The notes beneath the pieces were generated by a model. The model was not told the origin of the DNA. It searched no databases and saw only the letters and a list, made by a program, of their open reading frames with translations. A program made the translations under genes and the position numbers. From Phyllobates terribilis (taxonomy: Eukaryota), in assembly GCF_046119375.1 (NCBI RefSeq), contig NW_027362769.1, positions 381,362,001-381,426,000 on the forward strand: DNA of 64,000 bases. Direction: 5' to 3'. Shown here one piece after another: positions 1 through 20,718 of the stretch (its first letter is position 1; each line of letters opens with the position of its first letter).

Positions 1-15
1 CCGAAAAATACAGTA
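1..15. mobile_element. Right terminus of a Tc2/pogo-like MITE (element extends off the window)
   Basis: ccgaaaaatacag|ta is identical to the right end of the TA-flanked MITE at 59789-59803. Confidence 0.55.
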
Positions 16-2358
16 ATTATATATATACAGCTGGTATAACCTGGGCATCTCCCGTATATATTTATATATGTACAGCTGGAATAACCTGGGCATCTCCTGT
101 ATATAATTATATATGTACAGCTGGTATAACCTGGGCATCTCCTGTATATAATTATATACTGTATGTACAGCTGGTATAACCTGGGCACCTCCTGTATATA
201 ATTATATATGTACAGCTGGAATAACCGGGGCATCTCCTGTATATAATTATATACTGTATGTACAGCTGGTATAACCTGGGCACCTCCTGTATATAATTAT
301 ATATGTACAGCTGGTATAACCTGGGCATCTCCTATATATAATTATATATGTACAGCTGGTATAACCTGGGCATCTCCTGTATATAATTATATATGTACAG
401 CTGGTATAACCTGGGTATCTCCTGTATATAATTATATATGTACAGCTGGTATAACCTGGGTATCTCCTGTATATAATTATATATGTACAGCTGGTATAAC
501 CTGGGCACCTCCTGTATATAATTATATATGTACAGCTGGAATAACCGGGGCATCTCCTGTATATAATTATATACTGTATGTACAGCTGGTATAACCTGGG
601 CACCTCCTGTATATAATTATATATGTACAGCTGGTATAACCTGGGCATCTCCTATATATAATTATATATGTACAGCTGGTATAACCTGGGCATCTCCTGT
701 ATATAATTATATATGTACAGCTGGTATAACCTGGGTATCTCCTGTATATAATTATATATGTACAGCTGGTATAACCTGGGCATCTCCTGTATATAATTAT
801 ATATGTACAGCTGGTATAACCTGGGCATCTCCTGTATATAATTATATATGTACAGCTGGTATAACCTGGGTATCTCCTGTATATAATTATATATGTACAG
901 CTGGTATAACCTGGGCATCTCCTGTATATAATTATATATGTACAGCTGGTATAACCTGGGCATCTCCTGTATATAATTATATACTGTATGTACAGCTGGT
1001 ATAACCTGGGCACCTCCTGTATATAATTATATATGTACAGCTGGAATAACCGGGGCATCTCCTGTATATAATTATATACTGTATGTACAGCTGGTATAAC
1101 CTGGGCACCTCCTGTATATAATTATATATGTACAGCTGGTATAACCTGGGCATCTCCTATATATAATTATATATGTACAGCTGGTATAACCTGGGCATCT
1201 CCTGTATATAATTATATATGTACAGCTGGTATAACCTGGGTATCTCCTGTATATAATTATATATGTACAGCTGGTATAACCTGGGCATCTCCTGTATATA
1301 ATTATATATGTACAGCTGGTATAACCTGGGCACCTCCTGTATATAATTATATATGTACAGCTGGAATAACCTGGGCACCTCCTGTATATAATTATATATG
1401 TACAGCTGGAATAACCGGGGCATCTCCTGTATATAATTATATACTGTATGTACAGCTGGTATAACCTGGGCACCTCCTGTATATAATTATATATGTACAG
1501 CTGGTATAACCTGGGCATCTCCTATATATAATTATACATGTACAGCTGGTATAACCTGGGCATCTCCTGTATATAATTATATATGTACAGCTGGTATAAC
1601 CTGGGTATCTCCTGTATATAATTATATATGTACAGCTGGTATAACCTGGGCATCTCCTGTATATAATTATATATGTACAGCTGGTATAATCTGGGCATCT
1701 CCTGTATATAATTATATATGTACAGCTGGTATAACCTGGGTATCTCCTGTATATAATTATATATGTACAGCTGGTATAACCTGGGCATCTCCTGTATATA
1801 ATTATATATGTACAGCTGGTATAACCTGGGCATCTCCTGTATATAATTATATACTGTATGTACAGCTGGTATAACCTGGGCACCTCCTGTATATAATTAT
1901 ATATGTACAGCTGGAATAACCGGGGCATCTCCTGTATATAATTATATACTGTATGTACAGCTGGTATAACCTGGGCACCTCCTGTATATAATTATATATG
2001 TACAGCTGGTATAACCTGGGCATCTCCTATATATAATTATATATGTACAGCTGGTATAACCTGGGCATCTCCTGTATATAATTATATATGTACAGCTGGT
2101 GTAACCTGGGCATCTCCTATATATAATTATATATGTACAGCTGGTATAACCTGGGCATCTCCTGTATATAATTATATATGTACAGCTGGTATAACCTGGG
2201 TATCTCCTGTATATAATTATATATGTACAGCTGGTATAACCTGGGCATCTCCTATATATAATTATATATGTACAGCTGGTATAACCTGGGCATCTCCTGT
2301 ATATAATTATATATGTACAGCTGGTATAACCTGGGTATATTCTGTATATAATTATATA
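14..2358. repeat. 45-bp AT-rich minisatellite (tatataattatatatgtacagctggtataacctgggcatctcctg), ~51 units, with ~870-bp higher-order structure
   Basis: Direct periodicity; variant units recur at 870-bp spacing (572/1442, 982/1852, 1077/1947). Confidence 0.97.
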
Positions 2359-2573
2359 CAGTACAGACCAAAAGTTTGGACACATCTTCTCATTTAAAAA
2401 TTTTTCTGTATTTTCATGACTATGAAAATTGTACAAAAAAGGGGGATACGTGGCACTCCTTGAACTTATGGGTGCTCAGATAGGATTCCACTCCAATTAA
2501 TGAAAAGTAAGAATCTGGCACTCCCAATTTCAGTGAAAAGATTTCAAAAACTATTTTTTATTATCATGATTCA

Positions 2574-2619
2574 TTAGAGTTAACGTTTCGGCCTCATTCG
2601 GCCTTCATCAGAACTGTAA
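2574..2619 (-). ncRNA. Minimal type I hammerhead ribozyme motif (mirror copy)
   Basis: Exact reverse complement of 2971-3016. Confidence 0.78.
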
Positions 2620-2970
2620 ATACAATTGACAAGAAATACATATGAGTATAAATTCCATGTTTCAACATATGTAACAAACAGTTAATACATATATGAATCA
2701 AGTTTTAAAGGAAATAATTACAAAGACAATATACAAAAAAAAGGAAACAGAGAAATAATTAATCAAAACTAGTTCTTAGTATACTTAGTATACTATACTA
2801 TACTAGTATACTAAGAACTAGTTTTGATTAATTATTTCTCTGTTTCCTTTTTTTTGTATATTGTCTTTGTAATTATTTCCTTTAAAACTTGATTCATATA
2901 TGTATTAACTGTTTGTTACATATGTTGAAACATGGAATTTATACTCATATGTATTTCTTGTCAATTGTAT

Positions 2971-3016
2971 TTACAGTTCTGATGAAGGCCGAATGAGGCC
3001 GAAACGTTAACTCTAA
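2971..3016 (+). ncRNA. Minimal type I hammerhead ribozyme motif
   Basis: Stem I ttacagtt/aactctaa (7 of 8 pairs), core CUGAUGA plus extra A, stem II ggcc-gaatga-ggcc, GAAA, palindromic stem III ACGU, predicted cleavage after GUU. Confidence 0.78.
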
Positions 3017-3444
3017 TGAATCATGATAATAAAAAATAGTTTTTGAAATCTTTTCACTGAAATTGGGAGTGCCAGATTCTTACTTTTCATTTTATGAAAA
3101 TTGTACATTCACACTGAAAGCATCACAACTATGAATTAACACATGTGGAATTATATACTTAACAAAAAAGTGTGAAACAACTGAAAATATGTCTTATATT
3201 CTAGGTTCTTCAAAGTAGCCACCTTTTGCTTTGATGACTGCTTTGCACACTCTTGGCATTCTCTTGATGAGCTTCAAGAGGTAGTCACCGGAAATGGTTT
3301 TCACTTCACAGGTGTGCCCTGCCAGGTTTAATAAGTGGGATTTCTTGCCTTATAAATGGGGTTGGGACCATCAGTTGTGTTGTGCAGAAGTCTGGTGGAT
3401 ACACAGCTGATAGTCCTACTGAATAGACTGTTAGAATTTGTATT

Positions 3445-4497
3445 ATGGCAAGAAAAAAGCAGCTAAGTAAAGAAAAACGAGTGGCCATCATTATTTTAAG
3501 AAATTAAGGTCAGTCAGTCTGAAAAATTGGGAAAACTTTGAAAGTGTCCCCAAGTGCAGTTGCAAAAACCATCAAGCGCTACAAAGAAACTGGCTCACAT
3601 GAGGACCGCCCCAGGAAAGGAAGACCAAGAGTCACCTCTGCTTCTGAGGATAAGTTTATCTGAGTCACCAGCCTCAGAAATCGCAGGTTAACAGCAGCTC
3701 AGATTAGAGACCAGGTCAATGCCGCACAGAGTTCTAGCAGCAGACACATCTCTACAACAACTGTTAAGAGGAGACTTTGTGCAGCAGGCCTTCATGCTAA
3801 AATAGCTGCTAGGAAACCACTGCTAAGGACAGGCAACAAGCAGAAGAGACTTGTTTAGGCTAAAGAACACAAGGAATGGACATTAGACCAGTGGAAATCT
3901 GTGCTTTGGTCTGATGAGTCCAAATTTGAGATCTTTGGTTCCAACCACCGTGTCTTTGAGCGACGCAGAAAAGGTGAACGGATGGACTCTACATGCCTGG
4001 TTCCCACCGTGAAGCATGGAGGAGGAGGTGTGATGGTGTGGGGGTGCTTTGCTGGTGACACTGTTGGGGATTTATTCAAAATTGAAGGCATACTGAACCA
4101 GCATGGCTACCACAGCATCTTGCAGCGGCATGCTATTCCATCCGGTTTGCGTTTAGTTGGACCATCATTTATTTTTCAACATGACAATGACCCCAAACAC
4201 ACCTCCAGGCTGTGTAAGGGCTATTTGACCAAGAAGGAGAGTGATGGGGTGCTACGCCAGATGACCTGGCCTCCACAGTCACCAGACCTGAACCCAATCG
4301 AGATGGGTTGGGGTGAGCTGGACCGCAGAGTGAAGGCAAAAGGGCCAACAAGTGCTAAGCATCTCTGGGAACTCCTTCAAGATTGTTGGAAGACCATTTC
4401 CGGTGACTACCTCTTGAAGCTCATCAAGAGAATGCCAAGAGTGTGCAAAGCAGTCATCAAAGCAAAAGGCAGCTACTTTGAAGAACCTAGAATATAA
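3445..4497 (+). pseudogene. Tc1 transposase (DD38E) with 4 in-frame stop codons
   Basis: MARKKQLSKEKR start, GRPR linker, WSDES, HDNDPKH...SPDLNPIE; 38 residues between the second D and E; single frame with premature TAA/TGA/TGA/TAG. Confidence 0.93.
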
Positions 4498-4659
4498 GAC
4501 ATATTTTCAGTTGTTTCACACTTTTTGTTAAGTATATAATTCCACATGTGTTAATTCATAGTTTTGATGCCTTCAGTGTGAATGTACAATTTTCAAAGTC
4601 ATGAAAATACAGAAAAATCTTTAAATGAGAAGGTGTGTCCAAACTTTTGGTCTGTACTG

Positions 4660-4866
4660 TATGTACATCTGGTATAACCTGGGTATCTCCTGTATATAAT
4701 TATATATGTACAGCTGGTATAACCTGGGTATCTCCTGTATATAATTATATATGTACAGCTGGTATAACCTGGGCATCTCCTGTATATAATTATATATGTA
4801 CAGCTGGTATAACCTGGGCATCTCCTGTATATAATTATATATGTACAGCTGGTATAACCTGGGCAT
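4660..4866. repeat. Continuation of the 45-bp minisatellite right of the Tc1 insertion
   Basis: Same unit, in register with the left array across the TA duplication. Confidence 0.95.
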
Positions 4867-5379
4867 GTTCTGGTACATATAATATAATATAACACCATCA
4901 GTAAGCACCAAATAGAAGTATATATTTTACAGTACAGCGGTTTGTCACATATATTCTTTTTACAGTGCATATATGATATATTATTTCTTATAATAACATT
5001 TTTATATTTCTCCATCTTTATAGAATAACACAAAGAACAATCCTATCGGGCTACAGAGAATGGAGGCGGCTCCGGTCACAGTGAGCCAGGACCCTTCACA
5101 ATACAGTGTAAATGTTATGCTACCATTCATACTGAATATTACAGATAATAGCGCGTCCCGTTCACCCGTCGTTACGTCACAGTTCTTCATTTTGTAGATA
5201 AAAAAAAAAAAAATCTGGAGCCTTAACCCAATTCACCCCAATGTGCCGCTCCTCTTGTTACCCTATCAGGAAGCTGAGATATGAGGAGCTGTTTCTACAC
5301 AGTAATCCATACAAATAACTCCTTATATCTCAGAATCCGGGACTTAAAGGGAAAGTGTCATCAGAAAATTATCAATTGT

Positions 5380-5760
5380 TTAAAGAGAACCTGTCACTCG
5401 CCATGAACATGTACGATATTTTTTTTTTACCTGGTGTAAATGCCGCTGTTCTCCTGAATCCGGTGATGTTTTTCTTTTGTTCCTGCGCCTCTCCGTTCCT
5501 GAGATATGGCTTCATCTTCCCTGCAAATACCTCTAATCTCGTTAGCCAAGTGGGCATGGTCAGATCTTCTGTGGGCGTGTTTTTGAGGGACACTCCCCAC
5601 TGCCTAACAAGAATAGATTTATATCCAAAGAATAGGGGACGATATCTCAGGAATGGAGAGGCACAGGAAGAAAATGAAAACATCGCCGGATTCAGGAGAA
5701 CAGCGGCATTTAAACCAGGTAAGAAAATTATATCTTTATGGCAAGTGACAAGTCTTTTGA
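5380..5760. mobile_element. TTAA-associated T2/Kolobok-like MITE
   Basis: Begins ttaa-agagaacctgtcac; arms ~5384-5510 and ~5640-5757 are inverted repeats, which explains the mirror ORFs. Confidence 0.7.
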
Positions 5761-5764
5761 ACAT

Positions 5765-7102
5765 CAGGTTTTTACATTTCTTGCATGTTTGTCACACTTA
5801 AATGTTTCAGATCACAAAACAAATGTAAATAGACAAAGATAACACAAGTAACCACAAAATGCAGTTTTTAAATGAAGGTTTTTATTATTAAGGGAAATAG
5901 AAATCCAAACCTAAAGGGCCCTGTGTGATAGTGATTGCCCCCTAAACCTAATAACTAGTTGGGCCCTTAGCAGCAACAACAGCAACCAAGCGTTTGTGAT
6001 AACTGGCAATGAGTCTTTTACAACGCTCTGGAGGAATTTTGGCCGCTCATCTTTGAAAGATTGTTGTAATTCAGCCACATTGGAGGGTTTCCGAGCATGT
6101 ACGGCCTTTTTAAGGTCATGCCACAGCATCTCAATCGGATTAAGGTGGGGACTTTGACTAGGCCACCCCAAAGTCTTAATTTTGTTTTTCTTAAGAAATT
6201 CAGAGGTGGACTTGCTTGTGTGTTTTGGATCATTGTCCTGCTGCATAACCCAAGTGCGCTTCAGCTTGAGGTCAAAAACAGATGGCCGGACATTCTCCAT
6301 CAGGACTTTTTGGTAGACAGCAAAATTCTTGGTTCCATTTACCACAGCAAGGTCCTGAAGCAGCAAAACAGCCCCAGACTTTCCGAAAAGTTAAACTTTT
6401 GTCTTTTCAGTCCACAGAGTATTCTCCCAAAAATCTTGGCGATCATCAAGATGTTTTCTGGCAAAACTGAGACGAGACTTTGTTCTTTTTGCTCAGCAGT
6501 GGTTTTCGTCTTGAAACTCTGCCATGCATGTCATTTTTTCCCAGTCTCTTTCTTATGGTGGAGTCATGAACACTGACCTTAACTGAGGCAAGTGAGGCCT
6601 GCAGTTTATTGGATGTTGTCGTTGCTGCGCTCTTGGGGTAATTTTGGTCGGCCGGCCACTCCTGGGAAGGTTCACCACTGTTCCATGTTTTCGCCATTTG
6701 TGGATAATGGCTCTCACTGTGGTTTGCTGGAGTCCCAAAGCTTTAGAAATGGCTTTATAACCTTTTCCAGACTGATAGATCTCAATTACTTTTTTTCTCA
6801 TTTGTTCCTGAATTTCTTTGGATCGCAGCATGATGTCTAGCTTTTGAGGATCTTTTGGTCTACTTCACTTTGTCAGGCAGGTCCTATTTAAGTGATTTCT
6901 TGATTGAGAACAGGTGTGGCAGCAATCAGGTCTGTGTGTGGCTAGGGAAATAGAACTCAGCTTCCCAAAGATGTTATAAACCACAGTTAATTTATGTTTT
7001 AAGGGGGAAGGGGGGCAATCACTTTTTCACACAGGACCCTATAGGTTTGGATTTCTTTGTTCCTTAATAATAAAGACCTGCATTTATAAACTGCATTTTG
7101 TG
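5765..7102 (-). mobile_element. Decayed Tc1-like transposon, DD34E, frameshifted
   Basis: ORF fragments MLRSKEI...GRPTKIT, KPLLSKK, QQDNDPKH...PSQSPHLNPIE (34-residue spacing); inverted repeats ~5870-5945 and ~7010-7100. Confidence 0.88.
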
Positions 7103-7177
7103 GAATTTAAAGTGGAAAAACACACTACAGGCTGATCCAACTCTGATGTAATGTCCTTAAAACAAGTCAAAATAAGG

Positions 7178-9108: not shown

Positions 9109-20718
<11,610 letters not shown>

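What the first reader, a model, noticed from the sequence alone, without database searches (positions are those of the whole stretch)
2436..3092. ~590-bp palindromic Penelope-like insert carrying two mirror-image hammerhead ribozymes
Seen: 287-bp arms (2499-2785, 2805-3091) around a 19-nt spacer, apparently perfect by eye, flanked by a 15-bp target-site-like duplication inside the Tc1 left TIR. Each arm holds a complete minimal type I hammerhead (2971-3016 +, 2574-2619 -) with an extra A after A9 and a palindromic ACGU stem III. Established: Penelope-like elements carry minimal hammerheads in their pLTRs, often form inverted pLTRs, and such short-stem-III ribozymes are proposed to act as dimers. 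Inference: near-identical arms imply a young event. Read-through from either strand gives an RNA that can either self-cleave or fold into a long hairpin masking the ribozyme (a possible endo-siRNA/ADAR substrate). The DNA could extrude a cruciform.
Basis: partly seen in the sequence, partly recalled or inferred. Interest (0 to 1): 0.7.

Follow-up and report, generated by a model that had tools for sequence, protein, structure and literature searches.

The report
Head-to-head Penelope retrotransposon stub
This mirror-image stretch of DNA is a short leftover of a known kind of jumping gene, pasted twice head to head, whose two self-cutting RNA motifs are predicted to be locked up and inactive; its sister copies, some with and some without the element's introns, likely show how these elements copy themselves.

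Summary
The palindrome, 15-bp target duplication and two minimal hammerheads are real, and a contig from a separate run spans the centre. It is a 657-bp, 5'-truncated, head-to-head insertion of a Neptune-type Penelope-like element whose RT/GIY-YIG parent lies elsewhere in this genome. This shape, and opposite-strand hammerhead pairs, are published (PMC3846280, PMC4209133). The ribozymes are likely inert: they need a dimer, sit on opposite strands, and are predicted buried in a 287-bp duplex. The promoter is missing. The more useful result lies in sister copies. 17 short insertions lack both leader introns and never extend upstream of the inferred start site, while 12 of 12 leaders that run into the ORF keep the intron. 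So sense, spliced mRNA is a template, which bears on the open question of Penelope intron retention. This scan has noted such stubs in other genomes and a spliced one in this genome (e1-9506236).

The parts
2353..4665 (+). Host Tc1-type DNA transposon (broken transposase); left TIR split by the insert (2353-2435 and 3108-3302), right TIR 4389-4665
   Evidence: stop codons in the frame 3442-3660
2421..2435 (+). Target-site duplication, left copy (15 bp)
2436..2498 (-). 63-nt tail of the Penelope-like element, on one arm only (distal priming site, inferred)
   Evidence: tail defined as the stretch between two RT start sites in PMC11167929
2499..2783 (-). Left arm: 3' part of leader intron 2 (2614-2783) plus exon 3 with hammerhead
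2578..2615 (-). Minimal type I hammerhead, mirror copy
2784..2806 (.). 23-nt junction filler made of repeats of the adjacent motif (includes the 19-nt spacer 2786-2804)
   Evidence: spanned by a contig of run X1
2807..3091 (+). Right arm, untailed: 3' part of leader intron 2 (2807-2976, ending in AG) plus exon 3 up to the proximal end
2975..3012 (+). Minimal type I hammerhead; helix I spans the 3' splice site; predicted cut after GUU 3006-3008
3093..3107 (+). Target-site duplication, right copy (15 bp); base 3092 is untemplated

Best explanation
The insert is a 5'-truncated, head-to-head insertion of a Neptune-type Penelope-like retrotransposon, likely made when two short cDNAs were primed from the two nicks of one 15-bp staggered cut and joined end to end, and its two hammerheads are predicted to be inert passengers. 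Shown: parent family, target duplication, one tailed and one untailed end, truncation inside leader intron 2, filler. Inferred steps: (1) the element's GIY-YIG endonuclease cut both strands 15 bp apart in the Tc1 TIR; (2) RT primed on unspliced sense RNA of one donor at two sites 63 nt apart; (3) both cDNAs are antisense, so they can join only through microhomology; the shorter one ended in the self-complementary word TATA, which finds a partner at the same place on the other cDNA, so that trimming gives a perfect palindrome without both RTs stopping at one base; (4) slippage synthesis added the 23-nt filler. The result has no promoter or ORF and cannot move again.
For: Sister copies 94-98% identical occur as inverted pairs around up to 25 kb, with RT and, read directly in L021, the DKG, YIDD, CxxCxxC and GIY-YIG-type motifs (Pfam GIY-YIG in the related L045). 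One tailed plus one untailed end in 15 of 16 insertions with both ends found (16 of 17 with C11:489M, P=1.4e-4). Duplications of 11-17 bp in 14 of 24 insertions. Both arms share variants private to their insertion in 6 of 6 pairs and the same splice state in 17 of 17 informative pairs (hand count). In L066 the longer arm is untailed and the shorter is tailed, so neither was copied from the other. 4 of 21 junctions are symmetric and all 4 sit on a 4-nt self-complementary word. A purified Penelope-like protein cuts and extends both strands and primes at two adjacent internal RNA sites (PMC11167929).
Against: No experiment on this element. The in vitro work is on a Poseidon element with a shorter tail. 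One insertion (C11:110M) has two untailed ends and 10 of 24 show no clear duplication. Shared variants and zero arm differences could also come from gene conversion. The hammerhead helices show no compensatory changes within families A-C. The second arm of L032 starts at the same base as the window's arms, so an RT pause site may contribute.
Confidence: 0.85

Rival explanations
1. One cDNA folded back on itself at the TATA word and was extended into a hairpin (self-priming, as proposed in PMC3846280), giving the second arm.
For: Arms are identical and end at the same base; the centre is self-complementary. In this copy the tailed arm is the longer one, so it could serve as template.
Against: Copy-back would have to stop at the untailed end shared by nearly all copies. 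Most sister insertions have arms of unequal length, and in L021 and L066 the shorter arm carries the tail that the longer arm lacks.
Confidence: 0.2
2. The insertion was first asymmetric and was later trimmed and homogenised into a perfect palindrome by hairpin or cruciform processing and gene conversion.
For: Only 1 of 8 two-armed unspliced family-A insertions is symmetric; filler is typical of end-joining repair (own knowledge).
Against: Both target duplications are intact; a pair 25 kb apart also has 0 differences (C9:48M), so identity needs no hairpin; symmetric junctions recur on self-complementary words.
Confidence: 0.1
3. The palindrome works as an RNA element: a source of double-stranded RNA or small RNAs, or a ribozyme switch.
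For: Read-through RNA would form a very stable hairpin, about -485 kcal/mol; the catalytic core is intact.
Against: No promoter in the insert; it lies in a dead transposon inside a satellite with no host gene found; junction unique in the genome; ribozyme predicted masked in both directions; no sign of selection.
Confidence: 0.05
4. Assembly or library fold-back artefact.
For: Perfect long palindromes can arise this way (own knowledge); three other runs did not cover the centre.
Against: Target duplication, one-sided tail, filler, many sister insertions of the same build, and an X1 contig across the centre.
Confidence: 0.02

Closest known systems
Insertion units of endonuclease-bearing Penelope-like elements with inverted 5'-truncated pLTR, one-sided tail and TSD (Pen2a_Av, PMC3846280, passages; scheme in PMC8557442, passages)
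   Same: Head-to-head inverted ends, tail on one end, target duplication, palindrome at the junction.
   Different: Both copies are cut inside the leader, leaving a near-perfect palindrome; tail is 63 nt rather than 30-40; duplication 15 bp rather than 8-10.
Minimal hammerheads of metazoan PLE pLTRs (PMC4209133, parts 1-2 of 4 read)
   Same: Core, extra base between 9 and 10.1, G10.1-C11.1, palindromic 15.2-16.2 without loop 3; pairs on opposite strands 100-700 bp apart are reported there; an intron end in helix I is reported for Drosophila Penelope.
   Different: GUU triplet in this subfamily (position 17: 42 U, 36 C, 6 A, 0 G in 84 contexts, some duplicated); intron end in helix I here in a Neptune-type element.
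Neptune clade of PLEs (PMC8557442, passages)
   Same: RT followed by a CxxCxxC linker and a GIY-YIG endonuclease.
   Different: No tree was built; Nematis shares the linker. Two leader introns and an upstream ORF1 in another frame.
Non-LTR retrozymes (bioRxiv 10.64898/2026.07.22.740005, part 1 of 5 and passages)
   Same: Short, non-coding, pLTR-derived, type I hammerhead.
   Different: Retrozymes are head-to-tail tandems giving RNA with two or more ribozymes; this is head-to-head with one ribozyme per strand.
Poseidon PAc in vitro system (PMC11167929, parts 1-2 of 4 read)
   Same: Two RT start sites downstream of the hammerhead define the tail; both strands primed.
   Different: In PAc the sites lie inside the ORF; here ORF1 begins about 50 nt after the tail.

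Membership tests
EN+ Penelope-like element (insertion unit) | Linked to PLE-type RT and GIY-YIG endonuclease | tested here: met
   Sister copies 94-98% identical flank RT ORFs; Pfam GIY-YIG E=7e-4 in related L045, below the curated cut-off. The window copy itself has no ORF.
EN+ Penelope-like element (insertion unit) | pLTR copies in direct or inverted order, 5'-truncated | tested here: met
EN+ Penelope-like element (insertion unit) | Tail at one end only | tested here: met
   2436-2498; 15 of 16 two-ended insertions
EN+ Penelope-like element (insertion unit) | Target-site duplication | tested here: met
   15 bp; 14 of 24 insertions with 11-17 bp
EN+ Penelope-like element (insertion unit) | Spliceosomal intron in the leader | tested here: met
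   Two GT-AG introns of 98 and 269 nt, proven by intron-less copies
Neptune clade | CX2-5CxxC motif between RT and EN | tested here: met
   definition from PMC8557442
Neptune clade | Placement in the RT tree | not tested
   No reference sequences fetched; Nematis not excluded except that vertebrate surveys list Neptune and Poseidon
Minimal type I hammerhead ribozyme | Conserved core with helices I and II and an NUH triplet | tested here: met
Minimal type I hammerhead ribozyme | Match to an Rfam hammerhead model | tested here: not met
   expected for a motif without helix III (inference)
Minimal type I hammerhead ribozyme | Compensatory changes in helices | tested here: inconclusive
   None within families A-C; other families in the genome have different helix I/II sequences that still pair by eye
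Minimal type I hammerhead ribozyme | Self-cleavage | not testable with these tools
   Needs an in vitro assay
Non-LTR retrozyme | Head-to-tail tandem units each with a hammerhead | tested here: not met
   Head-to-head pair
MITE or fold-back DNA transposon | Fixed ends with terminal inverted repeats and a fixed short TSD | tested here: not met
   Ends differ by the tail; lengths and duplications vary

The most novel reading that the evidence does not exclude
The family's genomic copies record why Penelope-like elements keep their introns. RT primes on sense RNA at a pair of sites that occurs twice in a tandem transcript. Priming at the first pair, on spliced mRNA, runs off the RNA's 5' end and leaves short intron-less dead ends. 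Only priming at the downstream pair, on RNA whose leader is unspliced (nascent, or cut out between two hammerheads and circularised), gives long copies with promoter and ORF. An antisense template is then not needed, and the window's stub is an early-terminated product of the unspliced route.
Probability: 0.5. Interest if true: 0.65.

Novelty: new member of a known kind. Interest (0 to 1): 0.33.

Why it matters
The palindrome itself is an ordinary dead insertion. Its value is as an entry to the family. PMC3846280 leaves open whether intron retention comes from an antisense or an unspliced sense template, and PMC8557442 calls its significance unknown. Intron-less copies with the same tails, duplications and inverted build show that sense, spliced RNA is reverse-transcribed in the germline, and their strict shortness gives a testable rule for which RNA yields living copies. 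I found no report of such copies in searches, but two key papers were not held and Repbase was not seen.

Tried and rejected
Rfam scans gave only sub-threshold miRNA and snoRNA matches: chance. Free folding of the isolated motif does not give the hammerhead fold (helix I 0.02-0.03 in a single arm). The alignment had wrong minus-strand coordinates in 6 of 14 rows and was dropped; one search replaced it. The idea that the centre marks the RNA 5' end was rejected: it lies 100 nt inside intron 2 and sister copies run through it. The idea that the spliced copies are one self-amplifying SINE-like family was rejected: they pair with different unspliced lineages and occur in families A, B and D. Laying contigs to find a spliced RNA running into ORF1 was uninformative: run X10 holds one spliced-junction contig at depth 5, but spliced copies exist as DNA and its far end was not shown. 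Absence of the centre in X4, X6 and X10 is no evidence. Pfam aminoglycoside and cornifin hits in the window are on low-complexity repeats. Dropped before counts: C796 (same flank as C1:603M), L158 and L159 (same flanks as L157), and two-armed insertions whose second arm crosses no splice site.

Full report
Observation. The insert is 2436-3092 and splits the left TIR of a Tc1-type element that itself sits in a 45-bp satellite. A minimal hammerhead descriptor hits only 2975-3012 (+) and 2578-2615 (-) in the window, with 0 of 5000 arm shuffles and no hit in 30 window shuffles. Rfam has no matching model. A contig of run X1 spans the unique centre without differences, and the left junction occurs once in the genome.

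Parent. A search of the own genome (10.6 Gb) with the right arm gave 46 matches from 40 scored of 293 candidates, many as inverted pairs 0.3-25 kb apart. Longer pairs enclose RT frames. L021 shows RT, a CxxCxxC linker and a GIY-YIG-type end, then a T-rich UTR, a promoter-like block with a TATA box, and the leader. Related copies hold open frames of 826-832 aa, with an ORF1 in another frame upstream. The linker places it with Neptune or Nematis (PMC8557442); no tree was built. The 63 nt at 2436-2498 are the tail. The arms stop inside leader intron 2, and the 23-nt centre is filler.

How it was made. Of 16 insertions with both 3' ends found, 15 have one tailed and one untailed end. 14 of 24 show duplications of 11-17 bp. 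Both arms share private variants in 6 of 6 pairs. In L021 and L066 the shorter arm has the tail and the longer lacks it, so neither arm is a copy of the other. This fits two cDNAs primed from the two nicks at two sites on RNA of one donor, as a purified Poseidon protein does in vitro (PMC11167929). All 4 symmetric junctions among 21 inspected lie on a 4-nt self-complementary word, which explains a perfect palindrome by annealing and trimming. These steps are inferred. The arms differ at 0 of 285 sites (95% bound about 1%) against 9 of 277 for the host TIRs, so the event is young unless conversion intervened.

The ribozymes. The core is conserved across 84 contexts of families A-C (selected by a core pattern; some duplicated), and the cleavage base outside that pattern is never G. 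The motif has no loop 3 and matches the dimer-type minimal hammerheads of PMC4209133, where a single motif did not cleave and where opposite-strand pairs 100-700 bp apart are already noted. Here the two copies can never share a transcript. In either direction the complement is made first, and predicted pairing of helices I and II is below 1e-17. The insert has no promoter, and no host gene was found among 17 ORFs scanned of 45 listed. A regulatory role is unlikely.

Spliced sisters. About a third of the hits began at window 2976, just behind an AG. These copies lack two GT-AG introns of 98 and 269 nt. Of 29 family-A loci mapped, 18 are spliced (17 insertions; one has a non-standard second junction) and 11 unspliced, the window among them. 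14 of 17 spliced copies begin within 13 nt around a site 30 nt after the TATA box; none reaches upstream of it, against 7 of 11 unspliced (Fisher P=2.8e-4). All 12 leaders that run on into ORF1 are unspliced at the intron before the hammerhead (8 of 8; 4 of 4). Two-armed insertions never mix states (17 of 17, hand count). Spliced copies pair with several unspliced lineages, occur in subfamily B, and in a family about 60% identical in protein, where 7 of 20 fetched loci (5 insertions) are short and intron-less. DNA-type run X1 holds both GT-AG joints. These counts are lower bounds from tight patterns, not a census. The start site is inferred from copy ends, not from RNA.

Meaning. PMC3846280 (passages) favoured an antisense template to explain retention and left an unspliced sense one open; PMC8557442 (passages) calls the significance unknown; PMC2377424 (passages) offers selection. 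The spliced copies show that sense mRNA is a template. They do not show which RNA gives the long copies: nascent RNA, a hammerhead-excised circle (the model of PMC4209133) and, for long copies only, an antisense RNA all remain possible. Searches found no report of intron-less genomic copies; two key papers were not held, and no supplements were read.

Verdict. The finding is real and ordinary: a new member of a described kind of insertion. Earlier notes of this scan describe similar stubs in other genomes and a spliced one in this genome; I reached both readings before that look-up, and they are not independent support. Interest 0.33, carried mostly by the sister copies.

Noticed in passing
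G000 loci L062-L071, L086-L088, L099-L105, L112-L129, L154-L159, L163: Short intron-less copies of three Penelope-like families that start near the inferred transcription start and carry tails, duplications and inverted arms.
   Followed up: yes
L137, L142, L144, L145, L146: Five long copies begin within about 75 nt after the tail end, near the ORF1 start, as if RT often stops on reaching the upstream priming site; alignment drop-off in divergent copies is not excluded.
   Followed up: no
L077:2900-3650, L072: ORF1 overlaps the RT-EN frame at a run of six T, consistent with a programmed -1 frameshift.
   Followed up: no
L021:2600-2900 (-): Promoter-like block upstream of exon 1 with CCAAT-, ETS- and E-box-like words and a TATA box (motif names recalled).
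   Followed up: partly
L148-L153: Other young Penelope-like families with open frames of 791-871 aa, arms up to 99.9% identical, and an acceptor-like site 2-5 nt before helix I of a different hammerhead.
   Followed up: partly
window 1-2352 and 4666-4870: 45-bp satellite array interrupted by the Tc1 element at a TA.
   Followed up: no
window 5415-5734 and 5852-7103: A 134-bp-arm MITE-like inverted repeat and a second Tc1-type element with 77-bp arms and a DDE_3 match.
   Followed up: no
window 10001-18000: About 8 kb of low GC with strong GC skew (0.42-0.44), probably another satellite.
   Followed up: no
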